Below are positions 27,140 through 46,743 of a stretch of 57,358 nucleotides of DNA, piece after piece. The stretch covers positions 1 through 57,358 of the IMG/VR virus record IMGVR_UViG_3300015189_000004; one strand, written 5' to 3'. Within the stretch, counting starts at the first letter, position 1. Each line of letters opens with the position of its first letter. Position numbers and translations under genes: made by a program. The stretch comes from a virus. Taxonomy: Duplodnaviria > Caudoviricetes. The notes beneath the pieces were generated by a model, which searched no databases, was not told the DNA's origin, and saw nothing but the letters and a program-made list of their open reading frames with translations.

Positions 27140-27171
27140 TCGCAAGAAAACCACGTCCTATAATGAGACCC
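27140..27171 (+). promoter_or_regulatory. Promoter motif, copy 4
   Basis: TCGCAAGAAAACCACGTCCTATAATGAGACCC. Confidence 0.85.
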
Positions 27172-27247
27172 ATAACGCCTACCATCCTATCAACGGAGAA
27201 ACGGCTGACCACATAGTGGAAACCGCTAAAGCGGAATGGTATCTCAT
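27163..27247 (+). ncRNA. Candidate small RNA A
   Basis: ATGAGACCCAT...ATGGTATCTCAT terminal stem with a bulge; inner A-CCAC-ATA-GTGG-A and A-CCGC-TAAA-GCGG-A hairpins; then TTTTCTGCC. Confidence 0.6.
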
Positions 27248-27310
27248 TTTTCTGCCTCATCCTTCTAGAATCCTCTAGCAGGCAATTGTGAAACTAGTAA
27301 GGAGATAGGC

Positions 27311-27703
27311 ATGAACATGGACCAGCGTGCGAAGATCAAGGACCACTTCCGTGAGAACAAGAACGTGTATATCGCTGCTGGTGTTGGCGTCCTCGTCGGT
27401 GCTGCCGGCTGTGTCTTCCTGAAAGATTCATCCACACTTGTCTCGATTCGAGAGACTCTGAACTTCAAGTGGAAATCGCCGACGACAAATGTTGTTCAGT
27501 TGATCATTCCGCCACTTGGTGATGCTGGGAATGTTGTTCAGTGTGTTGAAACAGGAACGATCTATGCGAGTCAAGGTCAAGCAGCACGAGAGCTTGGTGT
27601 CCGTGCTACGGACGTCTCGAAGCATATGCATGGTGTTCAAGAGCACGTCGCTGGATTGCATCTAAAGCTTCTAGGCAAGGCTGGCGAACCACTCGCAGGA
27701 TAA
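27311..27703 (+). CDS. Membrane-anchored protein with C-terminal NUMOD1-like HTH (paralogue of 39869)
   Basis: TM segment VYIAAGVGVLVGAAGCVFL, FKWKSPTTN, VQCVETGTIYASQGQAARELGV; the C-terminus resembles that of the HNH at 34523. Confidence 0.75.
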   Translation: MNMDQRAKIKDHFRENKNVYIAAGVGVLVGAAGCVFLKDSSTLVSIRETLNFKWKSPTTNVVQLIIPPLGDAGNVVQCVETGTIYASQGQAARELGVRATDVSKHMHGVQEHVAGLHLKLLGKAGEPLAG

Positions 27704-27724
27704 ACCCGCCCTATAATGAGAACC
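27693..27724 (+). promoter_or_regulatory. Promoter motif, copy 5 (overlaps the 27311 stop codon)
   Basis: TCGCAGGATAAACCCGCCCTATAATGAGAACC. Confidence 0.85.
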
Positions 27725-27795
27725 ACACTACCGGTCACCCGCTTACGGGAGGCTGACTACCCGCTTACGGGAAGTTGAAAAGTAGTGTGGTTCTC
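27716..27795 (+). ncRNA. Candidate small RNA B (2 x ACCCGCTTACGGGA)
   Basis: Perfect 14-bp terminal stem 27718-27731/27782-27795; repeats at 27737 and 27759 with G.U-containing lower stems. Confidence 0.75.
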
Positions 27796-27803
27796 CTTTT
27801 GCC

Positions 27804-27835
27804 ACGCAGGAAAACCACACCCTATAATGAGAACC
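27804..27835 (+). promoter_or_regulatory. Promoter motif, copy 6
   Basis: ACGCAGGAAAACCACACCCTATAATGAGAACC. Confidence 0.85.
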
Positions 27836-27935
27836 TAGTATCTGGATCACCCGATAAGGGAGATCTGAATGGCCACCCGATAAGGGAGACCTACTTGCCA
27901 CCCGATAAGGGAGACAACAGATACTAGGTTCTCAT
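27827..27935 (+). ncRNA. Candidate small RNA C (3 x CACCCGATAAGGGAGA)
   Basis: Perfect 18-bp terminal stem 27827-27844/27918-27935; repeats at 27848, 27874 and 27899 with covarying flanks. Confidence 0.78.
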
Positions 27936-27967
27936 TTTTCTGCCTAAACTCAACGAAAGGAATTGTT

Positions 27968-28090
27968 ATGTACTCACAGTGCAGAAAGCGTTACGGATTC
28001 TGGAACTTCATCGGAGACGTCCTCATGACGTGTCTCACAAGTGGGCTCTGGCTCATCTGGATCTTCGTTCGTGAGATGCGTCGTCGCTGA
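27968..28090 (+). CDS. Small membrane protein (40 aa)
   Basis: Read by eye: GAAAGGA RBS, then MYSQCRKRYGFWNFIGDVLMTCLTSGLWLIWIFVREMRRR. Confidence 0.65.
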   Translation: MYSQCRKRYGFWNFIGDVLMTCLTSGLWLIWIFVREMRRR

Positions 28091-28091
28091 C

Positions 28092-28241
28092 ATGCGTCTC
28101 ATATTCTGGGTCTCCATGCTGATCATCGCCGCAGGGTTCATCGCACGCTGGTACCGCGTCAGTGCGCCTCAGTCTCAGACAACAAATCTGCCGGAGACTT
28201 CCGGTGAAACGCTCGAAAGGAACACCGATGACGCTGCTTGA
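28092..28241 (+). CDS. Small membrane protein
   Basis: MRLIFWVSMLIIAAGFIARW...; starts 1 nt after the previous stop. Confidence 0.5.
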   Translation: MRLIFWVSMLIIAAGFIARWYRVSAPQSQTTNLPETSGETLERNTDDAA

Positions 28242-29001
28242 CATCGCAAAGAAGGTTGAGAGACTTGCCATTGAGAACTCTCCGGCCATTCTGACAGCGA
28301 TTGCTGTTACTGGATCACTGGCCACAGCATATCTTGCTGGTTCGGCCTCGTTCAAGGCTGCGGATCTGATTGCGGACGAGCAGTACCGCTTGGACCTGCA
28401 CCCGACGGCACACCAGCTCGAAACCAAGGAGAAGTTCTACCTCGTATGGAAAGCCTATATCCCAGCCGCTGGTACGGGTGTCGTGACCATAGTGTGCATC
28501 ATCGGCGCCAACCGTATCGGATCACGTCGGGCTGCAGCAGTAGCTGCCGCGTACACGATATCCGAGAAGGCATTCACCGAGTACCGGGAAAAGGTCGTCG
28601 AGAAGATGGGCGAAGCCAAGGAGCGGAAGGTCCGCGATGAGGTGGCGCAGGATCAGGTCAATCGGAATCCTGCCGGATCTCGAGAGATCGTCATCACTGG
28701 CAATGGCGACGTGCTCTGCTATGACGTCTTCTCGGAGCGATATTTCGAGAGCGACATGGAGACGCTCAAGAAGGCTCAGAACGATCTGAACTACACGCTC
28801 CTCAACGATGGTTATGCCTCTCTCGGGGACTTCTACGGCAAGATTGGCCTCTCTGCGATGCCGTATTCCGAAGAAGTTGGCTGGACGAGTGAGCATCTGA
28901 TGGAGATGCAGCTCTCGACCACGCTTTCGGATGATCAGCGTCCGTGCATTTCGCTCGACTTCCGCGTGACACCTGTGCGGGACTACTACCGCGTTCACTG
29001 A
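28228..29001 (+). CDS. Conserved phage protein (DUF6353-like; paralogue of 32080)
   Basis: NSPAILTAIAVTG...AAAVAAAY...AFTEYREKV...GYASLGDFY...VGW. Family name recalled, not searched. Confidence 0.65.
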   Translation: MTLLDIAKKVERLAIENSPAILTAIAVTGSLATAYLAGSASFKAADLIADEQYRLDLHPTAHQLETKEKFYLVWKAYIPAAGTGVVTIVCIIGANRIGSRRAAAVAAAYTISEKAFTEYREKVVEKMGEAKERKVRDEVAQDQVNRNPAGSREIVITGNGDVLCYDVFSERYFESDMETLKKAQNDLNYTLLNDGYASLGDFYGKIGLSAMPYSEEVGWTSEHLMEMQLSTTLSDDQRPCISLDFRVTPVRDYYRVH

Positions 29002-29011
29002 GGCCTACGCC

Positions 29012-29043
29012 TCGCAAGAATTACGGGTCCTATAATGAGACCC
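29012..29043 (+). promoter_or_regulatory. Promoter motif, copy 7
   Basis: TCGCAAGAATTACGGGTCCTATAATGAGACCC. Confidence 0.85.
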
Positions 29044-29066
29044 ATCCAACAAAAAGGAGAACCATC

Positions 29067-29261
29067 ATGTCCGAGCAGATCCCCGACATCAGCACCCTTC
29101 CCACCAAGAAGTTCGCATTCCTCAACAAGACCAACGCCATCCGCGTCGCCGTCGCAGCCACCGCTGTCGCCGTCGTCGCAGTACTCGTCGTCAAGTTGAA
29201 GGACGGCGCCTTCGAGGACGAGATCGGTGACCTGACCGTCGTCGAGACCCCCGAGTCCTGA
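29067..29261 (+). CDS. Small single-pass membrane protein
   Basis: AAGGAG RBS; hydrophobic run VAVAATAVAVVAVLVV. Confidence 0.7.
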   Translation: MSEQIPDISTLPTKKFAFLNKTNAIRVAVAATAVAVVAVLVVKLKDGAFEDEIGDLTVVETPES

Positions 29262-29285
29262 CACACCCCCAAGTTTGACCCCTCG

Positions 29286-29331
29286 AAAGGAAAGGCTTTG
29301 TAACCAACAATTACAGAGCCTTTCCTTTTTG
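29286..29331 (+). terminator. Intrinsic terminator
   Basis: AAAGGAAAGGCTTTGTAA-ccaacaa-TTACAGAGCCTTTCCTTT followed by TTG. Confidence 0.75.
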
Positions 29332-29357
29332 CTTTGACCAATGATAAGGAATACTAG

Positions 29358-29777
29358 ATGCAACACAAAGATTTCGAACGCGTTCTCGATCAGCAGATCA
29401 AGATGTGTCAGGATGTTCTGGTCGTCAAATCCGGAAGCTACTCGACTGAGTCAGACAAACTGCACAACTTCAAGGTTGCCGCCGATATTCAGGGATGCAC
29501 GATCCCGCAGGCGGTTGCCGGGATGATGGTCAAGCACACGGTCTCGATCTATGACATGTGCGCCAGTGACAAGGGCTTCGACATGGAGATCTGGGACGAA
29601 AAGATCACAGACCACCTGAACTACCTGTTCTTGCTCAAGGCAGCAGTGCTCGAAGAGGCCTACGACACGCTTCCGTGGGCACTGCTTCCCTATTTCGAGT
29701 CGGGACCACCCGCTCCGTCGGCTCACGCCACAGTCAACACGGACGGCTCTATCCACCTGCATTGCACTGAGATCTGA
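29358..29777 (+). CDS. Hypothetical protein (possible all-alpha nucleotide-modification-associated domain)
   Basis: K...Y....DKLHNFK...M.KH...EKITDHLNYL pattern. Confidence 0.55.
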   Translation: MQHKDFERVLDQQIKMCQDVLVVKSGSYSTESDKLHNFKVAADIQGCTIPQAVAGMMVKHTVSIYDMCASDKGFDMEIWDEKITDHLNYLFLLKAAVLEEAYDTLPWALLPYFESGPPAPSAHATVNTDGSIHLHCTEI

Positions 29778-29928
29778 GAGGCATACCCATGCATGATCGT
29801 CTTACCAAGATCCAATACGTCGCTTTCATCGCTGGTGCTTCGGTTGGACTCCTCATGGCCCGAGGGTTCATTGCTGGCGTCAACAAGGTCTTCCCGCCCA
29901 ACCCCATCAAGAACTGAAAGGCACACCC

Positions 29929-30486
29929 ATGCTCAAGAAAGACATCACATACCAGGACCTCGACGGCAACTCCCTCACGGAGACCTTCTGGTTCAACCTC
30001 TCCAAGGCTGAGATCGCCAAGATGGAGCTCAGCAAGAACGGCGGGGGCCTGACCGGCTACCTCAAGGCCATCGTGGAGGCAGAAGACGGAGAGGCCATCG
30101 TCACTACCTTCGAGGAGATCTTGACCAAGGCCTACGGCATCCGCAATGCGGACAACAAGGGCTTCGACAAGTCTCCTGAGATCTCGAAGCACTTCATGTC
30201 GACCGATGCTTATTCGGTTCTGTTCATGGAGCTCGTGACGGACGCTGAGGCAAGCTCGGCCTTCATTCGGGGGATCGTTCCGGCAGATCTCAGCGAGAAG
30301 ATGGACGACACCGTCCTTCCGGCTGGAATGCTTCCGAAGTCTGACTTCCGTCTCGAGAGTGTAGGGACGGATCTTCACAGTGCGGCTGAGACGGTCTCTG
30401 CTGCGGTCGAGACGGCAAAGACGTCGAACATGACTCTCGACGAGATGAAGGCTGCGATCCGCAAGGCCGAAGAGAACAGCCAGTAG
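29929..30486 (+). CDS. Conserved hypothetical protein
   Basis: GAAAGG RBS; MLKKDITYQDLDGN...FWFNLSKAE; strong codon bias. Confidence 0.75.
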   Translation: MLKKDITYQDLDGNSLTETFWFNLSKAEIAKMELSKNGGGLTGYLKAIVEAEDGEAIVTTFEEILTKAYGIRNADNKGFDKSPEISKHFMSTDAYSVLFMELVTDAEASSAFIRGIVPADLSEKMDDTVLPAGMLPKSDFRLESVGTDLHSAAETVSAAVETAKTSNMTLDEMKAAIRKAEENSQ

Positions 30487-30595
30487 TTCATATTTGCGAG
30501 ATGGGAGTTAGCAAGGGTCCTTTCTCAGGGGTCTCGCCCTATTCCGGATGCTGACTTATAAACGCCAGCCGACGTTCCCATATCATGTGCCCACC

Positions 30596-30627
30596 TCGCA
30601 GAAACTCCACGCCCTATAATGAGACCC
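30596..30627 (+). promoter_or_regulatory. Promoter motif, copy 8
   Basis: TCGCAGAAACTCCACGCCCTATAATGAGACCC. Confidence 0.85.
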
Positions 30628-30646
30628 CTATGAAAGGAACACCACC

Positions 30647-30901
30647 ATGACCAAAACTGACATCACCAAAGCTGTCGTTCGCAACATCGTTGGCTACACC
30701 ACTTCGTTCACTATCGCAAACCTCATCCGTCGCAACCTCCAGACAGAATCCACCATTGAAACGGTCGAGATCTATGTCGGGTCGGTTGTCGTCGGTGCCA
30801 TGATTGCCGAGAGTGCACAGAAGTACGTAGACAAAGAGATTGACGACCTGACCGCCGCGTGGAAGTCCATGAAGACCACCATGAAAGCCAACCAGAACTA
30901 G
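30647..30901 (+). CDS. Hypothetical protein
   Basis: GAAAGGA RBS after promoter copy 8. Confidence 0.7.
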   Translation: MTKTDITKAVVRNIVGYTTSFTIANLIRRNLQTESTIETVEIYVGSVVVGAMIAESAQKYVDKEIDDLTAAWKSMKTTMKANQN

Positions 30902-30906
30902 ACCCT

Positions 30907-30948
30907 CAAACCCACAGCCCCTAACACGGGCTTACGGTTTGCTTTTTT
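30907..30948 (+). terminator. Hairpin with CTAACAC loop and T tract
   Basis: CAAACC-cac-AGCCC-CTAACAC-GGGCT-tac-GGTTTG-CTTTTTT. Confidence 0.75.
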
Positions 30949-30963
30949 GACAGAGGACTAATT

Positions 30964-31269
30964 ATGGAATATCCCGGCAACAGTTATGCCATGCGAGGCG
31001 AGATGAAGCGCGTTGCCAGCGAAGATCCAAGCACATATCAAAACACCTCTGGCCATTACTACGTTCGACTCAAATACACGGTGTGGCCTGAACTCTACGG
31101 GGACGAACTCCCGATTCCTTTTCCGACTCTCAAAGCAGCACTATTCTTTGCTGAGATCAACATCACGTCCACAGTAGTTCGTGCTCGTGTGTACACGCCA
31201 TCCGGCACTCTGGTCACTATATTTGCCTACTCCAATAGTGGGACAGTACGCAATGACCTTCTCTCTTAG
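30964..31269 (+). CDS. Hypothetical protein
   Basis: GAGGA RBS; ORF track. Confidence 0.6.
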   Translation: MEYPGNSYAMRGEMKRVASEDPSTYQNTSGHYYVRLKYTVWPELYGDELPIPFPTLKAALFFAEINITSTVVRARVYTPSGTLVTIFAYSNSGTVRNDLLS

Positions 31270-31281
31270 ATTGAGGACAAA

Positions 31282-31932
31282 ATGGTTAGCGAATTCCCCA
31301 GCAACAGCAAGAACCCTACGAACGAAAAGAAGTCGAAGGAAGAGCCGAAGAAGGTCGAGCGGGTCATTCAGGGCGAAGTCATTCGTCGAAAGAAGCCGAT
31401 GCTGCGACGTCTCAAGGACACCTTCGGCGGTGGCGACGCCAAGGGCGCTGTCAGTTTCGTTCTGATCGACGTGATTCTTCCGATGACGAAGGACATGGTT
31501 GCTGACGCGGTCAGTCAGGGCGCCGAGCGAATGATATTCGGTGAGTCGAGGTCTACGAGTCGTCGAAGTGGTCGTCATTTCGGAAGCGGCTCGAACAACC
31601 ACACCAACTACCAGAAGTCGTTCCGAGGAGGCTCTCGTGACAACTACCGAGACGATCCTCGGGCAAACCCGACACGCAAGGCACGAGCAAGCTTCGACTT
31701 CGAAGACATCATCATCCCCACGCGCGCTGAGGCTGAGGACGTTATCGACCAGCTCTTTGAGTTGATCTCGAAGTTCGAGGCAGTCACCGTCGCGGAACTC
31801 TACAGTCTCGTAGGTGTCACACCGACCTACACCGACGAGCAGTGGGGCTGGTACGACCTTCGTGGTGCAGGACCGACCCGGATCAGCAATGGATATCTGC
31901 TTGAACTCCCGAAGCCGGAACCTCTCGACTGA
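31282..31932 (+). CDS. Conserved hypothetical protein
   Basis: GAGGA RBS; C-terminal VTVAELYSLVG...WGW motif. Confidence 0.7.
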   Translation: MVSEFPSNSKNPTNEKKSKEEPKKVERVIQGEVIRRKKPMLRRLKDTFGGGDAKGAVSFVLIDVILPMTKDMVADAVSQGAERMIFGESRSTSRRSGRHFGSGSNNHTNYQKSFRGGSRDNYRDDPRANPTRKARASFDFEDIIIPTRAEAEDVIDQLFELISKFEAVTVAELYSLVGVTPTYTDEQWGWYDLRGAGPTRISNGYLLELPKPEPLD

Positions 31933-32069: not shown

Positions 32070-32079
32070 GGAGTCAAGC

Positions 32080-32988
32080 ATGAATCTGAAACTCACAACG
32101 ATTAAGAACGCCATCACGTCGAAGGCGGCACGACAGATCCTCGTCACTCAGAAGCACTCACCCACGCTGCTTTTCGGTGCGGGCGTCGTTGGTGTCATCG
32201 CAACAGTGGTGCTTGCCTCTCGGGCAACGCTATATCTGGATGCTGCCATTGACGAGACCAACGATAAGCTGGTCAAGGCATGGGACATGCACGAGGAGAA
32301 CAAGAACTACACAGACAGCCAGTGGAACCGCGACAAGCTCACCATCCGTTCTCGTGGTGCCATGCAGATCGCCAAGTTGTACTGGCCGGCAGTCACCGTG
32401 GGCGTCATCTCCATCGGTTGCCTCAGTGGTTCACACGTCATTCTCACCAAGCGCAACGTTGGCTTGACCGCAGCATACGCCGCTGTCGAGAAGGGTTTCG
32501 CCGAGTATCGGGCGAGGGTCACCAGCGAGTTCGGTGAGGACAAGGATCGTGAGCTTCGCTACGGGACCGAGATGCATGAGGTCATCTCCGAGACGTCCAA
32601 GGGTGAGCATATTGTCACGAAAGTTCCGAGGGTTGGTCCCAATGGCTCGTCGATCTACGCCAAGTACTTCGATGAGTTCAACAAGAACTGGAACCGGGAA
32701 GCGGACTACAACCGGATCTTCATCCAGTGCCAGCAGGACTACGCCAACCACCTGCTTCACGCTCGTGGGCACGTCACTCTCAACGACGTGTATGACTCCC
32801 TCGGTATCGAGCGGAGCACCGCAGGATTCGTCGTCGGCTGGGTTCTGAACAAGGACGGTAGCGGAGACAATTTCATCGATTTCGGTGTATACGACAACAC
32901 CCAGAAGGCCCGAGACTTCGTCAACGGCCGAGAGGGTTCCATTCTGCTCGACTTCAATGTCGACGGCGTCATCTACGACAAGATCTGA
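32080..32988 (+). CDS. Conserved phage protein (DUF6353-like; paralogue of 28228)
   Basis: KHSPTLLFGAGVVG...LTAAY...GFAEYRARV...GHVTLNDVY...VGW...LDFNVDG. Confidence 0.7.
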   Translation: MNLKLTTIKNAITSKAARQILVTQKHSPTLLFGAGVVGVIATVVLASRATLYLDAAIDETNDKLVKAWDMHEENKNYTDSQWNRDKLTIRSRGAMQIAKLYWPAVTVGVISIGCLSGSHVILTKRNVGLTAAYAAVEKGFAEYRARVTSEFGEDKDRELRYGTEMHEVISETSKGEHIVTKVPRVGPNGSSIYAKYFDEFNKNWNREADYNRIFIQCQQDYANHLLHARGHVTLNDVYDSLGIERSTAGFVVGWVLNKDGSGDNFIDFGVYDNTQKARDFVNGREGSILLDFNVDGVIYDKI

Positions 32989-34522: not shown

Positions 34523-35026
34523 ATGGACGGGATCGAGGTCTGGTTAGAGATCGAAGAGGCGCCAAGATATCTTGTAAGCAGTCTTGGTCGCGTTCAAAAC
34601 CGTATGACTGGTCGGATACTAAGTCAAAGTCCAAATACGAGAGGTTATCCAAAAGTTCGATTGGTAATTGGTAATCGATCGTGGACCAGATCTGTTCATA
34701 GACTCGTTTCGGAAGCTTTTTTCGATGGTGATCACACAGGTCTTGAACCAAACCATGGTGACGGACAAAAACATAACAACTACATAGCAAATTTGGAGTG
34801 GACTACGCATAAGAAAAATATGATACATGCTGTTCGAACTGGACTGTTTACGCCTTCGGGAGGATCTAAAAAGGTTCCGATACGAATCGTGGAGACAGAT
34901 GAATTTTTTGACAGCATAAGTTCGTGTGCTAGAGCCATTGGTGGTAGACACGGGTCCATTCAACAATGTTTAGATGGTCGTCAACGATCACATAAAGGTT
35001 ACACATTCGAGTATGTTGATGACTAA
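34523..35026 (+). CDS. NUMOD4-HNH-NUMOD1 homing endonuclease
   Basis: YLVSSLGRV, VHRLVSEAF, NHGDGQKHNNYIANLEWTT..KNM.HA; visibly more AT-rich than neighbours. Confidence 0.88.
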   Translation: MDGIEVWLEIEEAPRYLVSSLGRVQNRMTGRILSQSPNTRGYPKVRLVIGNRSWTRSVHRLVSEAFFDGDHTGLEPNHGDGQKHNNYIANLEWTTHKKNMIHAVRTGLFTPSGGSKKVPIRIVETDEFFDSISSCARAIGGRHGSIQQCLDGRQRSHKGYTFEYVDD

Positions 35027-39868: not shown

Positions 39869-40258
39869 ATGAAACACGAGATCAAGAAACATTTCCAAGA
39901 GAACAAACGAGTGTATCTCGTGGGTGCAGGGTGTCTTGTTGTTGGGGTTGCTGGAGCACTTATGCTTACGCGTAGCGATGCTCGAGTGACGGTAGACGCT
40001 TGGAAGTTCATCGAGTTCAAATGGAAGTCCCCAACGACAAACAACATAATGCAAACGGTCATGGAACGTCGAGGGCACCCGGGCTATGTTGTTCGATGTA
40101 TTGAGACTGGCAAGAAGTTTGCAAGCCAAAACCAAGCTGCTTCTGAAATGGGGCTAAACGCGGGGAATCTTTGTTCGCATTTGAACGGTAAGTATGCTCA
40201 CGTTCAAGGATTCACGTTTGAACGTCTTGGCGAAGCCATTGCCTCCGGGGTCGCATAA
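39869..40258 (+). CDS. Membrane-anchored protein with C-terminal NUMOD1-like HTH (paralogue of 27311)
   Basis: IKKHFQENKRVYLVGAGCLVVG...FKWKSPTTN...VRCIETGKKFASQNQAASEMG...HVQGFTFERLGE. Confidence 0.78.
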   Translation: MKHEIKKHFQENKRVYLVGAGCLVVGVAGALMLTRSDARVTVDAWKFIEFKWKSPTTNNIMQTVMERRGHPGYVVRCIETGKKFASQNQAASEMGLNAGNLCSHLNGKYAHVQGFTFERLGEAIASGVA

Positions 40259-40281
40259 AATACACGCTCTATAATGAGACC
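40251..40281 (+). promoter_or_regulatory. Promoter motif, copy 9 (overlaps the 39869 stop codon)
   Basis: TCGCATAAAATACACGCTCTATAATGAGACC. Confidence 0.85.
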
Positions 40282-40408
40282 AACCACTGGACGCCCGTTA
40301 AGGGTATCCGACAATGGACGCCCGTTAAGGGTATCCGACAATGGACGCCCGTTAAGGGTATCCAATACCAGACGCCCGTTAAGGGTATCGAAAAGTGGTT
40401 GGTCTCAT
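40274..40408 (+). ncRNA. Candidate small RNA D (4 x GACGCCCGTTAAGGGTATC, 27-nt period)
   Basis: Perfect 15-bp terminal stem 40274-40288/40394-40408; repeats at 40290, 40317, 40344 and 40371. Confidence 0.78.
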
Positions 40409-40410
40409 TT

Positions 40411-40495
40411 GAACCCATAACGTATAGGAGACCCCAGAAGGGGACACCTTTGCCGGAGACCCCAGAAGGGGACACTGGTAGTTATGGGTTCTCAT
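40411..40495 (+). ncRNA. Candidate small RNA E (2 x GGAGACCCCAGAAGGGGACAC)
   Basis: 11-bp stem GAACCCATAAC/GTTATGGGTTC; repeats at 40427 and 40455; ends in TCTCAT. Confidence 0.72.
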
Positions 40496-40592
40496 AAACA
40501 AGATTAGAACTCCAATCAACGAGTCACCCCTTTAGGGGAGGCCATGTTATGCACTGCAGGCTTGGGTTGTACACGGATTCTTGTTTTCTCAT
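40496..40592 (+). ncRNA. Candidate small RNA F (single GTC-A-CCCC-TTTA-GGGG-A-GGC hairpin)
   Basis: AAACAAGA/TCTTGTTT stem; ends in TCTCAT followed by TTCTGCTT. Confidence 0.55.
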
Positions 40593-40624
40593 TTCTGCTT
40601 TCAAACAAAGAAGGAGTAGCAATT

Positions 40625-41050
40625 GTGCAGACATTTCTGCCATACGAAAGCTTCGAGGAGTCAGCACGAGTTCTTGACCGTCAGCGCTTAGGCAAGCAAC
40701 GTGTTGAGGGTTACCAAATCCTCAAGGCACTTGTCCTAGGGACGGGATGGATTCATCATCCGGCAACAAAGCAGTGGGCTGGCCACGAGTTCTGGTTAGT
40801 GGACTACATTCTCGTCATGATCGACGAGTGGACACGTCGAGGCTACAAGGACTCCGTCCGGGACAAGATCGATGCTCTTCTTCTGGAGTATCCACTTCCT
40901 TTGTGTTCTCGTCCAGACTGGCTTGGGTATGAGCCATACCACGCATCACACCGAGCAAACCTTCTTCGTAAGGATCAGTTCTACTACGGTCAGTTCGGAT
41001 GGACCGAAGATTCAACCACGCCATATTACTGGCCATCGCACAACAACTAA
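40625..41050 (+). CDS. Pyrimidine-dimer DNA glycosylase/endonuclease V-like protein (MSMEG_6728 family)
   Basis: MQTFLPY...LDRQRLGKQRVE..QIL...HHPA..QW...HASHRANLLRKD; AAGGAG RBS before GTG. Confidence 0.8.
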   Translation: MQTFLPYESFEESARVLDRQRLGKQRVEGYQILKALVLGTGWIHHPATKQWAGHEFWLVDYILVMIDEWTRRGYKDSVRDKIDALLLEYPLPLCSRPDWLGYEPYHASHRANLLRKDQFYYGQFGWTEDSTTPYYWPSHNN

Positions 41051-41062
41051 GGAGCACTAAAT

Positions 41063-41743: not shown

Positions 41744-42370
41744 ATGGACAGCGATACCTGGGTTCAGAGGATTCGGGCATGGTGGAACTGGACGTTCTAC
41801 TACCGCGTGACACGAAACCGGGAGCAGTTGCTTCTGTGGTTTGTCGGTCATCTGCCTCGAGAGGTTGCCTATCGTGCAGCCATTCGGGTGATTGCTGACG
41901 CGACTACCGGTGCATATGGCAACCAGAACGTTCCGGAGTTGTATGCCATGGATGCAATCGAACGTTGGCCAAAGCGTCTGGGTGGTGATCGTACTAACAG
42001 AAAGACTAGGGACGATCAAGTTCTTCTGACTGATGAGCAGCTCGGCCGGTACACCTATCAAGACGATCAGAGATCTCACGATCTTGCTGTAGCGATCTGT
42101 CACACAGTCGATTACATCGGCACGGAGAACCTTCCGGCAGTTCCGGGTTGGTCTTGGTTTGATGCCCTCGATCAGCATTATCCAGAGATGGCTCAGCAGT
42201 TCGTTTCCGGTCGTGTCGGTGAGAAGGGTGGTCGATGCTCATCTTGTCATACCATGCAGACGATTCGTTACGGGATGATCAGAGCGCATGCCGACTCGAA
42301 CGAGAAGATCTGTTCGGGTTCAGGGTTCCCTCCGCTTGATCCACCTCTGAACGTGTCGAACGGTGAATAG
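41744..42370 (+). CDS. Hypothetical protein
   Basis: GAGGA RBS before MDSDTW; C-terminal CxxC...H...C cluster. Confidence 0.55.
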   Translation: MDSDTWVQRIRAWWNWTFYYRVTRNREQLLLWFVGHLPREVAYRAAIRVIADATTGAYGNQNVPELYAMDAIERWPKRLGGDRTNRKTRDDQVLLTDEQLGRYTYQDDQRSHDLAVAICHTVDYIGTENLPAVPGWSWFDALDQHYPEMAQQFVSGRVGEKGGRCSSCHTMQTIRYGMIRAHADSNEKICSGSGFPPLDPPLNVSNGE

Positions 42371-42830
42371 CTCACACATATTCACGTACTGGAATGGTCT
42401 TCCCACAACAGCTTCACGTGGGACGGCCGTAGTCGCTGACGCACCAGAGTTCTCCCTTTACTGGGCAAGGGCTTTGGTGGGTCAGCGCATTCCAGTTGTG
42501 AAGGTCTACCTTGACGGCGTGAACTACGGCGGGGGTATCACATATCTCGACAACCGCGATGGCTCAGGGTGGCATAAGGTCACTGCGGGTCGCGGTTCGT
42601 CGAGGTATGCACACGGAGAAGTGTCCATCGAAGAAGACAGCTTTGAGGAAGATCATGCATAACGAAGCGGTGCAGACTCTTATTCTGTTGGAGCCTGACG
42701 AAGCACACACAGATAGCTGCAGAGCACACAAGGACCCGTCCAAGTGCAACTGCTATCTTCTCCAGAATGCCAAAACTCGAGTCACCGCGCTGGAGCAGGC
42801 GGGGTGGACAAATATCAGGAGGCACTCAGT

Positions 42831-43211
42831 ATGAACGAAGCGAAGCGTTACCGCAGGAAAGCTCGAGCCATCGACAAACTCATCCCAACAGACGACATCG
42901 TTCTCGAAGCGATGCAGTTGACTGGTCGTCCTGTTGAGACCATGCATGTCTGTGAGTGGATTCGAGACAGCGGATATCCATGGCTTCTCGGAAACGCGAC
43001 TCAGCCCGAAACGCTTGTGCCCGAGGGTGGTGGAAAAGCCGGCGACCCCGGTATCTATCTCGACCCAGCAACGGGAGAGCTTGTCGTTCGAATGCGCGAT
43101 CACGATGAGCGGGGTAAGTATGGGGAGTGGTGGCTTCATTTCCCTGACGGAAGTTTTCGAGCGTACTCTCCGGAGTTCTTTGCAGCCATGTACGAACCGC
43201 TCAACGACTGA
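42831..43211 (+). CDS. Hypothetical protein (YRRK...EA.Q / G.W...F...F...YE family)
   Basis: AGGAGG RBS; distant paralogue of 43626. Confidence 0.6.
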   Translation: MNEAKRYRRKARAIDKLIPTDDIVLEAMQLTGRPVETMHVCEWIRDSGYPWLLGNATQPETLVPEGGGKAGDPGIYLDPATGELVVRMRDHDERGKYGEWWLHFPDGSFRAYSPEFFAAMYEPLND

Positions 43212-43625
43212 TCCCAACCACCCGCCCCCAGTACTAAGAAGGAGTAAATGTGTCTACCACGATCCCCAAAGAGTTCGTCGGAACGCCCACAGTCACCCCC
43301 GGAAAGATTGCTGATTTTACCGAGTGGTATGTGAGCATGCTCGGCGACATGGACAAGGCTAGCGACATGGATGACGCCCTCTACTACTGGGGGTTCAGCG
43401 ATGCGATGGAGTCAGTACTTACGGTTCTCCACAACAATACCGCCGAAGCTGTCAAGGTCGTAGTCAAGCCGGGTCGTCATCTCATCACCAAGAAGCGTGT
43501 CATCATCGGCGTGACGATCTTTGTCTTGTACAAGAACCGGACTCGAATCAAAACCAAGCTCAATGAGGTCAAGGACCACCTCAAGCACATCTGATCTACA
43601 CAAACTCTGAAAGAGGAATCGAATT

Positions 43626-44084
43626 ATGTCTTTGAAGCCAGTGAAGTATGTCCGCAAGCCGTTCTACATCGACGCCATACAGGTTACCACAGAGAACCTC
43701 AACGAGGTTGCCAAGTGGTGCCAGGGTGAGGTGCGCTGGGCATGCAGAGACCCCAAGGGGACTGCTGAGAAGGATGCGTACGTCAAGGTCCGTGTTCATC
43801 GTCCTCTGAATGAGCGTCAGACTCAGGCCTTCGTCGGTGACTGGGTTCTGTATGCCGGAACCGGGTACAAGGTCTACACCCTCAAGGCGTTCACCAACAG
43901 CTTCGAGGTTGTTGACAGCGTCTCGAGGTATGAGATGGAGCGGATCGAGAACGAGCGTGAGGCAGAGGCCAAGATCGTCCGTGAAGAGAAGTTCAACCAG
44001 ATCGAGCTCACCGAGAAGATCGAAGAGCTCATGACCGTCAACCAGCAGGCAGTGCTTGCTCCCGTCGAATTCAAGGAAGCCTGA
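43626..44084 (+). CDS. Hypothetical protein (KYVRKP..IDAIQ...GDWVL family)
   Basis: GAGGA RBS; motif shared with 42831. Confidence 0.65.
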   Translation: MSLKPVKYVRKPFYIDAIQVTTENLNEVAKWCQGEVRWACRDPKGTAEKDAYVKVRVHRPLNERQTQAFVGDWVLYAGTGYKVYTLKAFTNSFEVVDSVSRYEMERIENEREAEAKIVREEKFNQIELTEKIEELMTVNQQAVLAPVEFKEA

Positions 44085-44480
44085 CATGAACGAGCACACG
44101 GCCAACGTGGCCACCATCACCATCATTGTCCTCGGGGTTTTGGCCCTGAAGGTTCTCAAGAAGAAGGGTTTGTTATGAGCGAACAGCCTGCAGTTCCCGC
44201 AGTGACCCAGATCGTCATCCCGCCGAAGCCCCGGCCGACGCGTGAGCTTGAGATCGAGGCTGACATGGCCGTTCGATATCTCGAGCAGTTCACTCGCAGT
44301 GACCGGCTTGACCCGGACCTGCGGATGGCGATGACGGGCATGGGTGTCTTCTGTGTTGGTGTGATGGTTATCGCCGTCAAGGCGGGCATCGCACAGGAAG
44401 CACGGATGACTTCTACGTTGAATGGGTACGTCGATCAGCTCAACGCTTTGGTCGAGATGTCTCAGGTCAACGCGCTGTAA

Positions 44481-44765
44481 CAACTCCTCTGGGGGAGTCT
44501 AAACCGCTTAAGCCCAGAGCGTCGGGACTCGATTTGTAGGGGGTCGGGTCCCGGGTGGCTGTGAAGGACAACACAGAAGTCTAATTGACGGTAGCCTGTC
44601 GATATAGATCTAAATAAAAAACCGGTTCGTGGTTTACCCCGCGAGGGGATCGAAGAGGATCGACTACTCCAAGTCGAAACTCGATTACCTTTATGCATGG
44701 AGCTTAAGGTAAACGAACGACGGTGGTGGGGCTATGGACAGCGACAGGTTCTTAGCCCCACTGCC
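44481..44765 (+). ncRNA. Candidate large structured RNA
   Basis: ~285 nt with no + strand ORF in the track; several hairpins with G.U pairs and a possible pseudoknot CCTGTCG (44595)/CGACAGG (44742). Confidence 0.55.
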
Positions 44766-45022
44766 CTTTAACCCACCCAAATTTTGAAGGAGATCGGCAT
44801 GACCAAAGCTCGGCGTCAGGGTTTCTATACCCGAGGCAAAAGTAACCGCAGCAGCAAGCGTCTGTACATGACTGGATCTCCGGTCGAGAAGCTCATCAAC
44901 TTGATTGAGCGCGAGGCCAAGCACAACCCACACGCAAGCGCTTTGCAGAGGAAGCGTGACGAAGACGCACGAGCCTTCCGGCTCAGCGAAAACCAAACCA
45001 AAATTTCAGAAAAGGAATTGTC

Positions 45023-45451
45023 ATGAAGAAGTCCATTGCTTCGATCATCGCTATCTGCACCATAGCTTTTCTGTCTGCCTGCTCCAGTCCTGCTGTCGAG
45101 GACGCTGCATCGGTAGCCGCTCCGGTTGCCGTCGTCACCACCACGGAGGCTCCTGTGTCTTGGAACGGTACTTGGAAGGCCGAGGGAATGTCGGCTGTCA
45201 TCAAGGACAATCTCATCACGATCAACATCGTCTCTCCCGACACCACCTCGCTCTACTGGCAGGGTGACTGGGATATGAGCAAGCCGGCTAAGGATGGGAC
45301 TGACATGGTCTCGATCGGGGATGTCGCAGCAATGAGTGCGTCGATGCTCGGCTCGCAGGACAACAAGAAGGCCTTCTCTTTTGAGAACGATGAGCTGAAG
45401 TTCTCGTTCTCGATGATGGGGACCACCAAGACCATTCGTCTGAAGAAGTAG
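45023..45451 (+). CDS. Lipoprotein
   Basis: MKK plus hydrophobic stretch plus lipobox LSAC. Confidence 0.8.
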   Translation: MKKSIASIIAICTIAFLSACSSPAVEDAASVAAPVAVVTTTEAPVSWNGTWKAEGMSAVIKDNLITINIVSPDTTSLYWQGDWDMSKPAKDGTDMVSIGDVAAMSASMLGSQDNKKAFSFENDELKFSFSMMGTTKTIRLKK

Positions 45452-46180
45452 GGGCTATGAAGATCAAGTGTGAGAAGCACAACCGTAGGGTCATGATCAT
45501 CCCAAAGCCGCTGGGTATTCCTCAGGTCACTCTTCATCGAGATGACGGGTCACACTGCGATCTTCTCGGCGCATACATCATGGGTAAGAAGGTCGTATCT
45601 TTTCGTGCGATTGATCACCACATCATGGTCATGAAGGAGCTCAAGTGACTCAGAACGTTTTCGACAACGCTGAGCCAGACCCAACGGTTCCGGGGATGAC
45701 CTTGGAGAAGCTCAACGCGATGATCAAGTCAGAGAACATCTGGCATGAGGGTCAAGTCGCTCTGGACCTCAGTCGGTACGAGGCAACTGCTCGCACTGAG
45801 AAAGCTCGTCACGATTTTCGACTGCAGGAACTCGAGATGATCATCACGACTCTCAAAAGTCTGCCTAGAGGAGAACAATGAGCATTTTCACACTGTCCGA
45901 GGATGACCCAATCGTTATTCGGGCGAAGGGTCTCAAGGATGCAGGCATGACTGAGGTCGGCTTCATTCCCGAAGACGAGTACGGCTGCAAGATCTACGGT
46001 CGGAACGAGTACGGACGACTGATGCTCATCGGCATTCACTCAAAGAGCTACGGGTGCCCGAAGAAGAGCACCGACAGCATCCAGATCACAGCAAGTCTAC
46101 TAAGGAGGTGATCGGCATGAGACCCAAGTCCAACACCCACGCACTCTGAGTATAGCTCGTCGCCGGCCCATAACTGAATA

Positions 46181-46259
46181 GCGCTGCACGGCACCTCATA
46201 GGGCTGTGGGAACTCACTCGATATCGAGGAGTAAAGAGGTTCGAACCCTCTTCAGCGCA
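46181..46259 (+). ncRNA. tRNA-like element (non-canonical)
   Basis: GCGCTG/CAGCGC-A acceptor-like stem and AGAGG-TTCGAAC-CCTCT T-arm; the D and anticodon arms are atypical. Confidence 0.5.
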
Positions 46260-46638
46260 CGATCCTTTAAACGGTCATTACTAAGGTGGTGATGTCATGC
46301 AACCGAGCGTTAAACGCGCTCACGCTTTCCGTTAAGGAGTTGGTGGGGATCTCTAGCCGGGGTTCCCACCGCTCTGACAAACCCAAATTCAACCAAAGGG
46401 AACCAAAATGAGAACCACTAAACTGACGACTCCCAAGATGAACAAAGACCTCGCATCAGACAAGCCTGCTGGTTACTGCCGAGAATGTGCACACTTCATT
46501 CTCCTCAACAACGAAACCGGCATGGTCCGCAAGCATGGTCGTAAGGCTGACGGTGTGTACTGCAAGGGCTCGCATCGTGCGCCTTCGAAGGCTGCAGACT
46601 CATATCTCGTGAAGGACTGGACCCCTCCGCGTAGAAGC

Positions 46639-46666
46639 TCGTAGGAATTACACGCCATATAATGAA
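46639..46666 (+). promoter_or_regulatory. Promoter motif, copy 10
   Basis: TCGTAGGAATTACACGCCATATAATGAA. Confidence 0.8.
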
Positions 46667-46743
46667 GAGAAGACCCTTAATCAGGTAAGTAATCGACAGG
46701 CCTAAACGAACCTCGACTACCGAGGATTATTATGGTCTTCTCT
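46662..46743 (+). ncRNA. Candidate small RNA G
   Basis: 10-bp stem AGAGAAGACC/GGTCTTCTCT; inner A-CCTCG-ACTAC-CGAGG-A hairpin; then ATTTGCC. Confidence 0.6.

What the first reader, a model, noticed from the sequence alone, without database searches (positions are those of the whole stretch)
27163..46743. Family of promoter-driven small RNAs: long terminal stem enclosing tandem A-CC(C)-loop-(G)GG-A hairpins
Seen: seven non-coding units (27163-27247, 27716-27795, 27827-27935, 40274-40408, 40411-40495, 40496-40592, 46662-46743). Five begin at the conserved promoter. Each is closed by an 8-18 bp terminal stem and holds 1-4 short hairpins: 2x ACCCG-CTTA-CGGGA, 3x ACCC-GATAA-GGGA, 4x GCCC-GTTAA-GGGT, 2x ACCCC-AGAA-GGGGA, ACCCC-TTTA-GGGGA, ACCGC-TAAA-GCGGA and ACCTCG-ACTAC-CGAGGA. 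Below an A.A mismatch the flanks differ between copies yet still pair (GATC/GATC, GGCC/GACC, TTGCC/GACAA, CGGTC/GGCTG with G.U, GACT/AGTT), which points to selection on RNA structure. Inference: these are stable multivalent decoy RNAs, each presenting a different loop variant to a host RNA-binding protein, and they are made early. I do not recognise this architecture from any described family.
Basis: partly seen in the sequence, partly recalled or inferred. Interest (0 to 1): 0.92.

Follow-up and report, generated by a model that had tools for sequence, protein, structure and literature searches.

The report
Phage small-RNA cassettes with matched hairpin tips
An actinobacterial phage carries short non-coding cassettes, each running from a phage promoter to a terminator and folding into a closed stem that holds one to four small hairpins; related cultured phages have the same design, and the hairpin tips inside one cassette change together, which points to an unknown sequence-specific binding partner.

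Summary
All seven units exist at the stated coordinates. Five start at one of ten copies of a conserved promoter. Six of the seven fold far better than shuffled sequence.

They form five transcription units, not one homogeneous family. Each runs from promoter to closing stem to U-tract.

The same design occurs in Gordonia (Deejayvirinae), Rhodococcus ReqiPepy6 and Arthrobacter Qui phages, and in uncultured relatives. One ReqiPepy6 cassette holds a tRNA.

Two window units belong to families with strong covariation:
- 40496-40592 belongs to F1: 12 of 29 pairs are compensatory.
- 27827-27935 belongs to F2: 15 of 35 pairs are compensatory.

In F2 the scaffold is conserved, while the hairpin tips change in concert. 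Artorias and Captrips differ by the same 4 changes in each of 3 tips, but by only 1 change in 70 scaffold columns.

The gene directly upstream encodes a membrane-anchored NUMOD-like HTH protein. It is hypervariable exactly in its HTH.

There is no Rfam match, and the searched papers describe only the promoter motif.

Best reading, confidence about 0.5: these are small RNAs that show identical tips to a sequence-specific partner, and they also throttle read-through into downstream genes. A decoy for one host RNA-binding protein is not supported. Expression and timing are untested.

The parts
27136..27171 (+). conserved promoter driving unit U1
   Evidence: nhmmer profile hit, E 1.5e-9; pattern hit
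27163..27247 (+). U1: closed stem with three short hairpins, the last CCGC-UAAA-GCGG, followed by a U-tract. It is followed by the NUMOD-like gene 27311-27703, which has no promoter of its own.
   Evidence: fold z -3.15; sequence; no homologue found
27311..27703 (+). NUMOD-like HTH protein with an N-terminal hydrophobic segment (paralogue 1, phrog_27818). It lies directly upstream of U2 and U3.
   Evidence: Pfam PF22083 E 3.4e-4, below cut-off; phrog_27818 E 6e-25
27692..27724 (+). conserved promoter driving U2
   Evidence: E 5.3e-9
27716..27795 (+). U2: 14-bp closing stem, two hairpins with the identical tip CCCG-CUUA-CGGG, lower stems containing G.U pairs, then a U-tract
   Evidence: fold z -7.15
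27800..27835 (+). conserved promoter driving U3
   Evidence: E 3.7e-8
27827..27935 (+). U3: member of family F2. It has an 18-bp closing stem, three hairpins with the identical tip CCC-GAUAA-GGG, and a U-tract.
   Evidence: fold z -7.04; F2 alignment and covariation; model R1 75.1 bits
27968..28090 (+). 40-aa membrane-type ORF downstream of U3 with no promoter of its own. Homologous ORFs follow cassettes in two uncultured relatives.
39869..40258 (+). NUMOD-like HTH protein, paralogue 2, directly upstream of U4-U6
   Evidence: Pfam PF22083 35.4 bits, above cut-off; phrog_27818
40247..40282 (+). conserved promoter driving U4-U5-U6
   Evidence: E 9.3e-9
40274..40408 (+). U4: 15-bp closing stem holding four copies of the hairpin GCCC-GUUAA-GGGU; three copies form an exact 30-nt tandem repeat. 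Only a weak U-run follows.
   Evidence: fold z -8.20; sequence
40411..40495 (+). U5: 11-bp closing stem, two hairpins with the tip CCCC-AGAA-GGGG; no own promoter and no U-tract
   Evidence: fold z -4.84; weak R1 hit of 20.2 bits
40496..40592 (+). U6: member of family F2's sister family F1, a five-helix RNA that includes the hairpin CCCC-UUUA-GGGG. It ends in the U-tract of the whole U4-U6 transcript.
   Evidence: alignment with Gill, Pherobrine, Odesza and ReqiPepy6; blastn
40625..41050 (+). pyrimidine-dimer DNA glycosylase gene downstream of U6, with no promoter of its own
   Evidence: Pfam PF03013 E 1.4e-22
46636..46666 (+). conserved promoter (variant) driving U7
   Evidence: E 5.3e-8
46662..46743 (+). 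U7: 10-bp closing stem, with hairpin CCUCG-ACUAC-CGAGG and a second hairpin, then a U-rich tail. It is followed by ORF 46775-46984.
   Evidence: fold z -3.13; no homologue found

Best explanation
The units are genes for small structured RNAs, built as self-contained cassettes.

HOW A CASSETTE WORKS. Transcription starts at the phage's conserved promoter. The first bases of the transcript later pair with its last bases to form a long closing stem. That stem sits directly before a U-tract, so it ends transcription, and it ties both RNA ends into a helix. Inside the closing stem, one to four short hairpins are displayed.

THE TIPS. Within one RNA the hairpin tips are usually the same sequence. 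In related phages all tips of an RNA change together while the scaffold stays fixed. I infer from this that the tips are read by a sequence-specific partner that binds several copies per RNA, and whose specificity differs from phage to phage.

THE PARTNER. My preferred candidate is the small NUMOD-like HTH protein encoded directly upstream, whose HTH segment is hypervariable. This is a lead only.

SECOND ROLE. Each cassette sits between a promoter and a gene that has no promoter of its own, so it also acts as an attenuator that limits read-through into that gene.

SHOWN: sequence, fold, covariation, conserved architecture, concerted tip change.
INFERRED: that the RNAs accumulate, that the tips are bound, and who binds them.
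For: WINDOW.
- There are ten promoters; five drive mRNAs with a short leader and five drive the units.
- The units fold far better than shuffles.
- U1, U2, U3, U6 and U7 end in the same U-run-plus-GCC tail as the ordinary terminator at 26841-26885.

RELATIVES.
- The same promoter word is strand-exclusive in relatives: Gill 11 forward and 0 reverse, ReqiPepy6 12 and 0, Qui 21 and 0.
- Non-coding cassettes of the same build occur in Gill, ReqiPepy6, Qui, Pherobrine, Odesza, Avazak, Artorias, Captrips, Perkunas, Petito and several IMG/VR contigs.
- One ReqiPepy6 cassette carries a tRNA in the same frame of promoter, closing stem and U-tract (Rfam 42.1 bits, ARAGORN). The format is therefore used for a stable RNA.

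COVARIATION.
- F1: 5 sequences, 29 pairs, 12 with compensatory change. 95.0% of cells pair, against 37.6-55.5% when partners are slid. 0 of 500 shuffles reach the observed value on four of five measures; on 'further pair types' 56 of 500 do.
- F2: 7 sequences, 35 pairs, 15 compensatory. 92.4% pair against 39.7-51.3% slid. 0 of 500 shuffles reach it.
- On the + strand several G.U pairs are invariant or alternate with A-U or G-C.
- A model built on F2 finds two untrained members: L035 at 90.6 bits and ReqiPepy6 u3 at 59.8 bits.

CONCERTED TIPS.
- All three tips are identical in the window unit, Artorias, Captrips and Perkunas (4 of 7 aligned RNAs), and also in L035. Two of three are identical in Petito.
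- Artorias and Captrips differ by the same 4 changes in each of the 3 tips. One of them is a compensatory stem change, U-A to G-C. Only 1 of 70 scaffold columns differs.

UPSTREAM GENE.
- A NUMOD-like gene directly precedes a cassette in the window (twice) and in Gill, ReqiPepy6, Qui, Pherobrine, Odesza, Avazak (twice), Artorias, Captrips, Perkunas, Petito, L013 and L035.
- Between Artorias and Captrips that gene differs at 3 of 139 nt in its 5' part and at 38 of 119 nt in the HTH part.
- Five lineages show five HTH variants with five tip sets.
- In F1, Odesza has both a divergent HTH and a rebuilt hairpin, CUUGC-UAU-GCGAG against CUCC-UUUA-GGAG.
Against: EXPRESSION. There are no expression data of any kind.

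STRAND.
- The + strand does not fold better than its complement: it is more stable in 14 of 29 automatically found candidates, Wilcoxon p = 0.30. At least 4 of those 29 are short genes with their terminators.
- For the tandem-tip units the complement is the more stable strand: window U3 -49.1 against -58.2 kcal/mol, Captrips -41.4 against -57.7 kcal/mol.
- The reason is that the conserved C.A and A.A mismatches would be G.U and U.U on the other strand.

TRANSCRIPTION START. In 10 of 28 candidates the closing helix extends 2-5 bases into the -10 hexamer. A sigma-70-type start site would not transcribe those bases.

AGAINST THE NUMOD-LIKE PROTEIN AS PARTNER.
- ReqiPepy6 u3 carries the Artorias-type tip, although the only NUMOD-like protein found in the 47 kb of ReqiPepy6 that I held has a different HTH.
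- The window has seven tip types but only two such proteins.
- NUMOD-type HTH domains are known as DNA binders.
- The charge pattern around the hydrophobic segment (my reading of the sequences) would place the HTH outside the membrane.

OTHER POINTS.
- Tips are not always uniform: all three differ in ReqiPepy6 u2 and in Odesza u2.
- Gene conversion between repeats could homogenise tips without any selection.
- U1, U2, U4, U5 and U7 have no homologue in the loci held.
Confidence: 0.5

Rival explanations
1. One reading: the RNAs are stable multivalent decoys that soak up a host RNA-binding protein or a host defence nuclease early in infection.
For: - Several identical hairpins on one RNA closed by a terminal stem is how known sponge and decoy RNAs are built. 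This is established knowledge of the CsrB/RsmZ and adenovirus VA RNA families, not something tested here.
- Cassette content turns over fast at syntenic positions. The small YGFWNF-type ORF is preceded by a different RNA in the window, in L013 and in L017. That looks like an arms race.
- One cassette in ReqiPepy6 carries a tRNA, and phage tRNAs are a known counter to tRNA-cutting defences.
Against: - Four phages isolated on the same strain, G. rubripertincta NRRL B-16540, carry four different tip sets on a nearly identical scaffold.
- One phage carries up to seven unrelated tips, so a single conserved host protein cannot be reading them all.
- No loop holds a GGA-type motif or any other shared motif.
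- The host of the window phage is unknown.
Confidence: 0.15
2. The units are only cis-acting leaders. In this view they are strong promoter-proximal terminators, or insulators, that set how much transcription reaches the next gene and end transcripts arriving from upstream. The terminated RNA would have no role of its own.
For: - Every cassette ends in a stem plus U-tract of the same form as the ordinary terminator at 26841-26885.
- The downstream genes 27311, 27968, 40625 and 46775 have no promoter of their own.
- In Deejayvirinae the gene after the cassette keeps a conserved leader with no promoter.
- The closing helix reaches into the -10 hexamer, so it would also fold in read-through RNA from upstream.
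Against: - A plain hairpin would do this job.
- F1 keeps five helices across three phage genera.
- F2 keeps its three-hairpin scaffold while its tips change in concert.
- U4 and U5 have closing stems but no U-tract.
- A tRNA sits in the same frame.
- Closing stems of 14-18 perfect pairs leave little room for regulation.
Confidence: 0.15
3. The repeats act as DNA. They would be arrays of binding sites (iteron- or centromere-like) for the NUMOD-like HTH protein encoded next to them, for example to tether or organise replicating phage DNA at the membrane.
For: - The gene for a DNA-binding-type HTH sits directly upstream in every phage examined.
- Its HTH segment and the repeated tips are the two hypervariable patches of the locus.
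- A symmetric change in both half-sites is what a dimer on a palindrome would also demand.
- No strand asymmetry in folding energy was found.
Against: - The flanks below each tip differ between copies yet stay complementary. The long closing stems co-vary with no sequence conservation. Neither is needed for double-stranded sites.
- Units without a promoter still have their own closing stems.
- G.U alternates with A-U and G-C on the + strand.
- ReqiPepy6 u3 shares tips with Artorias but not the HTH.
Confidence: 0.12
4. The units mimic the RNA part of a host defence system: a type III antitoxin array (pseudo-ToxI) or a CRISPR-repeat mimic (RNA anti-CRISPR).
For: - Direct tandem repeats of 22-30 nt lie between a promoter and a terminator.
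- Each repeat holds a small G+C-rich hairpin.
Against: - No ToxN/AbiE-type or other defence domain occurs in the neighbouring ORFs (Pfam; PADLOC).
- The repeats are enclosed in a closing stem and have no spacers.
- The tip stems are 3-5 bp.
- No CRISPR repeat could be compared, because the host is unknown.
Confidence: 0.04

Closest known systems
CsrB/RsmY/RsmZ-type protein-sponge sRNAs
   Same: One small RNA shows the same short motif on many hairpins and ends in an intrinsic terminator. It works by multivalent binding of one protein.
   Different: - Those RNAs show GGA in the loops; none of the window loops does.
- They have no closing stem joining the 5' and 3' ends.
- Here the tips differ between RNAs and between phages.
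- CsrA being generally absent from Actinobacteria is recalled, not tested.
Lambdoid N / nut (boxB) pairs
   Same: A short phage RNA hairpin whose tip co-varies with a phage protein from phage to phage. It lies just downstream of an early promoter and is tied to terminator read-through.
   Different: - boxB is a single hairpin; here there are 2-4 copies inside a closing terminator stem.
- No boxA or N-like arginine-rich protein was identified.
- Only two of the seven tips (GAUAA, GUUAA) could form a G...A pentaloop.
Type III toxin-antitoxin antitoxin arrays (ToxI and relatives)
   Same: The order promoter, tandem RNA repeats, terminator, next gene. The repeats and their protein are cognate and fast-evolving.
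   Different: - No ToxN-like gene lies next to the units.
- The repeats are shorter and hairpin-shaped, and they sit inside a closing stem.
Viral and cellular RNAs closed by a terminal 5'/3' stem (adenovirus VA RNA, Y RNAs/YrlA, 6S RNA)
   Same: The ends are paired in a long terminal stem with functional modules at the far end. The ReqiPepy6 cassette with a tRNA recalls the tRNA-like module of YrlA.
   Different: No Rfam hit to any of them. No Ro-binding helix or open-promoter bubble was recognised.
The 43-50 bp promoter motif reported for cluster DJ Gordonia phages Vardy and Conley
   Same: It is the same promoter word, holding TATAAT, repeated in the central region of small membrane-protein genes (passages read in PMC9671010 and PMC10868162).
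   Different: Those notes describe the motif in front of protein genes. In the passages I read they do not mention non-coding cassettes, closing stems or tandem hairpins.

Membership tests
Any Rfam 15 family | covariance-model score at or above the family's gathering threshold | tested here: not met
   0 hits in the whole window. The best sub-threshold hits were NsiR9 at 22.5 bits against 90 and mir-9413 at 21.2 against 100, both on the - strand. In 94 kb of three relatives only a tRNA was found.
F2 (defined here: three-hairpin scaffold RNA of Deejayvirinae and ReqiPepy6) | closing stem plus three hairpins in register, with a conserved GCC...GAC lower stem | tested here: met
   Window 27827-27935 aligns over its whole length. 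35 pairs, 15 compensatory. Model R1 gives 75.1 bits; the window sequence was in the training set, while the untrained L035 scores 90.6.
F1 (defined here: five-helix RNA after the NUMOD-like gene) | conserved core with helices P1-P5 and covariation | tested here: met
   Window 40496-40592 aligns with Gill, Pherobrine, Odesza and ReqiPepy6. 29 pairs, 12 compensatory, including P3 CAAC/GUUG in the window against CCUU/AAGG elsewhere.
CsrB/RsmZ-type sponge | GGA motif exposed in the hairpin loops | tested here: not met
   The loops are CUUA, GAUAA, GUUAA, AGAA, UUUA, UAAA and ACUAC.
Type III antitoxin array | adjacent ToxN/AbiE-family toxin gene | tested here: not met
   Pfam and PADLOC scans of ten neighbouring ORFs each gave no such domain.
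Type III antitoxin array | direct tandem repeats between promoter and terminator | tested here: met
   U4 has three exact 30-nt repeats plus a fourth copy. U3 has three and U2 and U5 two copies of the core.
Lambdoid nut site | boxB hairpin with a GNRA-like pentaloop, plus boxA and an N-type protein | tested here: inconclusive
   Two of the seven tips have G...A pentaloops. boxA and an N-like protein were not searched for.
RNA anti-CRISPR (repeat mimic) | sequence and structure likeness to a CRISPR repeat of the host | not testable with these tools
   The host of the window phage is unknown, so no repeat library was compared.
Intrinsic terminator / attenuator leader | stable stem directly followed by a U-tract, and a downstream gene without its own promoter | tested here: met
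   U1, U2, U3, U6 and U7 end in a U-run; U4 and U5 do not. No promoter lies between the cassettes and genes 27311, 27968, 40625 or 46775.
Iteron-type origin | direct repeats bound by the initiator encoded next to them | not testable with these tools
   The repeats and the adjacent HTH gene are present. Binding cannot be tested, and the co-varying flanks are not expected for such sites.

The most novel reading that the evidence does not exclude
The cassettes and the gene upstream would form a new kind of phage specificity module. A small membrane-anchored HTH protein, derived from a homing-endonuclease DNA-binding domain, would read the tips of a multivalent scaffold RNA. Protein and tips would diversify together between phages that share a host. 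That would give each phage a private RNA-protein address, for example for membrane-bound organisation of early transcripts or for exclusion of co-infecting relatives.
Probability: 0.15. Interest if true: 0.85.

Novelty: new variant of a known kind. Interest (0 to 1): 0.68.

Why it matters
- Cultured, teaching-lab phages (Gordonia cluster DJ, Arthrobacter Qui) would turn out to carry unannotated, conserved small-RNA genes in a region so far described only as 'small membrane-protein genes with a promoter motif'.
- The concerted change of hairpin tips on a fixed scaffold is a clean natural experiment that points to a sequence-specific partner. It is directly testable by tip swaps between sister phages on one non-pathogenic host.
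- Genome annotation would gain two covariation-supported RNA families and a recognisable cassette grammar: promoter, closing stem, U-tract.

Tried and rejected
LEADS THAT WENT NOWHERE.
- Rfam at gathering and at permissive thresholds gave nothing credible. ARAGORN finds no tRNA in the window.
- blastn of 27100-28000 against the phage collection found no match.
- A single-protein scan of viral contigs with the second NUMOD-like protein found no relative.
- The look-up of sequencing runs listed no RNA holder. The only holder is a DNA run with a 0.19 share of words.
- Structure prediction of the NUMOD-like protein without an alignment gave mean pLDDT 39.9, which is unusable. No fold search was run.

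IDEAS TESTED AND DROPPED.
- Tips as degenerate copies of the promoter or leader: a promoter profile does not find them.
- Tips pairing with the variable part of the upstream gene: the longest shared or antisense word is 5-8 nt, at chance level.
- + strand folding better than - strand: it does not.
- The promoter word following the 904-aa polymerase homologue everywhere: it does not. It is clustered in Giantsbane (12 forward, 1 reverse, control 1 and 1) and in Scap1 (4 forward, 0 reverse). It is no better than control in Circum (7 and 2 against 3 and 4) and in Lactococcus phage 1706 (8 and 1 against 2 and 5). It is absent in Yotsuba.
- No RNA-binding or toxin domain was found in 40 window ORFs scanned with Pfam or in 10 scanned with PADLOC.

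LITERATURE.
- I read passages only, not whole texts, of PMC9671010 and PMC10868162 (promoter motif in Vardy and Conley), bioRxiv 10.1101/842583 (polymerase homologue), PMC5513430 and PMC13313380 (genome architecture), and PMC10986025 and PMC8188706 (both irrelevant).
- The original ReqiPepy6 paper was not held, so I do not know whether it describes these structures.
- Supplements were not consulted.
- Searches behind the statement 'not described'.

Full report
WHAT THE WINDOW IS

The 57,358-base window is a whole, about 96% complete, uncultured virus record. All long genes lie on the + strand. Its large terminase is about 85% identical to those of Streptomyces and Gordonia phages. Its primase/polymerase is about 64% identical to those of Rhodococcus phage ReqiPepy6 and Gordonia cluster DJ phages. 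It is therefore a siphovirus of the actinophage group that also includes Arthrobacter clusters AM and AU. That grouping is taken from passages in PMC13313380 and bioRxiv 10.1101/842583.

CHECK OF THE OBSERVATION

The sequences at the seven coordinates are as quoted.
- The promoter word occurs ten times, all on the + strand, against 0.35 expected.
- A profile built from the ten finds those ten and nothing else: E <= 6.4e-8, with the next hit at E = 4.2.
- Five promoters are followed within 24-30 nt by a Shine-Dalgarno and a start codon. The other five are followed by the non-coding units.
- RNA folding reproduces the closing stems and inner hairpins. The z-scores run from -3.1 to -8.2 for six units and are -0.63 for 40496-40592.
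- Hairpins of the form A-CC..GG-A number 21 on the + strand and 6 on the - strand. Twelve of the 21 lie inside the units.

- Two of the 'pairing' flanks hold a C.A mismatch.
- Units 40274, 40411 and 40496 share one promoter and one terminal U-tract, so there are five transcription units.

THE UNITS ARE CASSETTES FROM PROMOTER TO TERMINATOR

U1, U2, U3, U6 and U7 end with a U-run followed by GCC. The ordinary 14-bp terminator hairpin at 26841-26885 has the same tail. No further promoter lies between a cassette and the next gene: 27311, 27968, 40625 and 46775. Each cassette is therefore both a short transcription unit and a barrier in front of a gene.

THE SAME DESIGN IN CULTURED PHAGES

The protein upstream of two of the cassettes is a roughly 130-aa protein with an N-terminal hydrophobic segment and a C-terminal NUMOD-like HTH. 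Both window copies (27311-27703 and 39869-40258) match phrog_27818; Pfam PF22083 scores 35.4 bits for the second copy.

I used this protein to find relatives. Directly after its homologues in Gill, ReqiPepy6 and Qui lie the same promoter and non-coding, closed-stem units.

The promoter word is strand-exclusive in these genomes: Gill 11 forward and 0 reverse, ReqiPepy6 12 and 0, Qui 21 and 0, with reversed-pattern controls at 0. Most copies drive a very conserved short leader. A minority drive cassettes.

More cassettes were read in Pherobrine, Odesza, Avazak, Artorias, Captrips, Perkunas and Petito, and in IMG/VR contigs. Their hairpins are often quite unlike the window's. Qui, for example, has three copies of a GAUCG...CGAUC hairpin under an A-rich internal loop. 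The class is therefore defined by its architecture, not by the A-CC..GG-A tip.

In ReqiPepy6 one cassette holds a tRNA between the closing stem and the U-tract (Rfam 42.1 bits; ARAGORN).

TWO WINDOW UNITS BELONG TO CONSERVED FAMILIES

F1. Unit 40496-40592 aligns with RNAs of Gill, Pherobrine, Odesza and ReqiPepy6.
- The consensus has five helices and 29 pairs, 12 of them with compensatory change.
- 95.0% of cells pair, against 37.6-55.5% when the 3' partners are slid.
- 0 of 500 shuffles reach the observed value on four of five measures. On 'further pair types' 56 of 500 do.

F2. Unit 27827-27935 aligns over its full length with RNAs of Artorias, Captrips, Perkunas, Petito, ReqiPepy6 and Odesza.
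- There are 35 pairs in a closing stem and three hairpins, 15 of them compensatory.
- 92.4% of cells pair, against 39.7-51.3% slid, and 0 of 500 shuffles reach this.
- A covariance model of F2 finds two members it was not trained on: L035 at 90.6 bits and ReqiPepy6 u3 at 59.8 bits. It finds none in the 11 IMG/VR loci searched, out of 13 fetched.

The other five window units have no sequence homologue in the loci held.

CONCERTED CHANGE OF THE TIPS

In F2 the lower stems differ between hairpin positions but are conserved between phages. The tips behave the other way round.
- All three tips are identical in the window unit (the three cores are read; the small distances come from an alignment-column offset), and also in Artorias, Captrips, Perkunas and L035.
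- Two of three are identical in Petito.
- All three differ in ReqiPepy6 u2 and in Odesza u2.
- Artorias and Captrips differ at 13 of 107 positions of the RNA. Twelve of those are the same four changes in each tip, including a compensatory change of the tip's closing pair. One lies in 70 scaffold columns.
- Perkunas differs from Artorias by one and the same base in all three tips.

Artorias, Captrips, Perkunas and Petito were all isolated on G. rubripertincta NRRL B-16540.

Either the tips are selected to be alike within an RNA and distinct between phages, or short-patch conversion homogenises them. I favour selection, because the pattern recurs in several lineages and includes paired changes.

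THE UPSTREAM GENE

Between Artorias and Captrips the NUMOD-like gene differs at 3 of 139 nt in its 5' part and at 38 of 119 nt in the part that encodes the HTH. The scaffold lying between that patch and the tips is nearly invariant, so a simple block exchange does not explain the pattern.
- Five lineages have five HTH variants and five tip sets.
- In F1, Gill, Pherobrine and ReqiPepy6 share an HTH motif and a UUUA-loop hairpin. Odesza has a divergent HTH and a rebuilt hairpin.

This is suggestive co-variation, but from few independent lineages. There is also a counter-example: ReqiPepy6 u3 has Artorias-type tips without an Artorias-type HTH.

EVIDENCE THAT CUTS THE OTHER WAY

- There are no RNA data (one search lists no RNA holder).
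- Folding energy does not favour the + strand: 14 of 29 candidates, p = 0.30. For the tandem-tip units the complement is the more stable strand, because the conserved C.A and A.A mismatches would be G.U and U.U there.
- Against that, promoters, U-tracts, the tRNA, and invariant or alternating G.U pairs all lie on the + strand.
- In 10 of 28 candidates the closing helix runs 2-5 bases into the -10 hexamer. Either transcription starts earlier than at a sigma-70-type promoter, or the helix is meant for read-through RNA from upstream.
- The phage encodes a 904-aa homologue of YonO/crAss-type polymerases with HTH motifs at both ends (phrog_4291; passages in bioRxiv 10.1101/842583). The promoter word does not track that gene in all relatives. 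Which polymerase reads the promoter stays open.

HOW IT MOST LIKELY WORKS

I commit to the following, at confidence about 0.5.
- The cassettes are small-RNA genes.
- The closing stem ends transcription and buries both RNA ends.
- The inner hairpins show one to four copies of one tip to a sequence-specific partner whose specificity differs between phages.
- The same structure limits read-through into the next gene.
- The partner is unknown. The NUMOD-like protein is my first candidate, at perhaps one chance in four.

The rivals are a host-protein or defence decoy (0.15), a purely cis-acting attenuator or insulator (0.15), DNA binding-site arrays for the HTH protein (0.12), and mimics of type III antitoxins or CRISPR repeats (0.04).

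COMPARISON WITH KNOWN SYSTEMS, AND NOVELTY

In working principle the nearest systems are multivalent sponge RNAs such as CsrB/RsmZ and the phage-specific N/boxB pairs. In outline the cassettes resemble type III antitoxin arrays and terminal-stem RNAs such as VA and Y RNAs. Each fails a defining feature that I could test (see the membership table).

The promoter motif itself is in print for DJ phages (PMC9671010, PMC10868162; passages read). I found no description of the non-coding cassettes in Rfam or in six literature searches. The original ReqiPepy6 paper and all supplements could not be seen.

I rate this a new variant of a known kind, phage-encoded structured small RNAs. Two new covariation-supported families and an unusual concerted-tip pattern make the partner question directly testable in non-pathogenic laboratory hosts.

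Noticed in passing
window 54183-56897 (+): A 904-aa ORF matches phrog_4291 ('RNA-dependent RNA polymerase', 1260 bits) and has HTH-like matches at both ends. Homologues sit at the right end of about 250 phage records, and in Lactococcus phage 1706 the homologue is annotated as a structural protein. It could be the enzyme that reads the conserved promoter, but the promoter word does not follow it in all relatives.
   Followed up: partly
window 26193, 26577, 26854, 30920 (+): Four hairpins just after small early ORFs share the seven-base loop CUAACAC on stems that differ (GCCC/GGGC, CCCC/GGGG and others). At least two are followed by U-runs. The word CCTAACAC occurs 4 times, all on the + strand, against 1.04 expected (3 of 100 shuffles reach 4). 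This is a second recurring RNA hairpin motif, in terminators of mRNAs.
   Followed up: partly
L013:8258, L017:9584, L023:7720, L018:8588, L012:12006, L011:11316, L010:2968: Relatives carry a third cassette family with a tRNA T-arm-like hairpin after a conserved AAGACAC...AAUG word, again between the promoter and a U-tract. It was not found in the window and has no Rfam hit at gathering threshold in the three relatives scanned.
   Followed up: no
L011:11193-11290 (ReqiPepy6): A tRNA (Rfam 42.1 bits; ARAGORN calls it tRNA-Ala with anticodon AGC; the record says tRNA-OTHER) sits in a cassette with the same promoter, an 8-bp closing stem and a U-tract.
   Followed up: partly
window promoters, and cassettes in relatives: In 10 of 28 automatically found candidates the closing helix extends 2-5 bases into the TATAAT hexamer, so the 3' arm ends in the reverse complement of the promoter core. 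Units without a promoter (ReqiPepy6 u3) still begin with the AUGAGA word.
   Followed up: partly
window 34523-35026 (+): A complete HNH homing endonuclease (NUMOD4 + HNH_3 + I-HmuI NUMOD-like). Its C-terminal domain is of the same family as that of the two small membrane-type proteins next to the cassettes.
   Followed up: no
window 28204-29001 and 32080-32988 (+): Two paralogous DUF6353 proteins (289 and 242 bits). The first served to fetch 13 uncultured relatives.
   Followed up: partly
window 27968-28090 (+); L013 ~9245; L017 ~9730: A roughly 40-aa ORF with a conserved R-Y-G-F/L-x-x-F-I start is preceded by a non-coding cassette in all three phages, but the cassette is a different RNA in each. 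Cassette content turns over at a fixed position.
   Followed up: no
window 1071-1433 (+): A LuxR/GerE-type HTH protein (50.1 bits) lies near the left end, upstream of the lysin and terminase genes.
   Followed up: no
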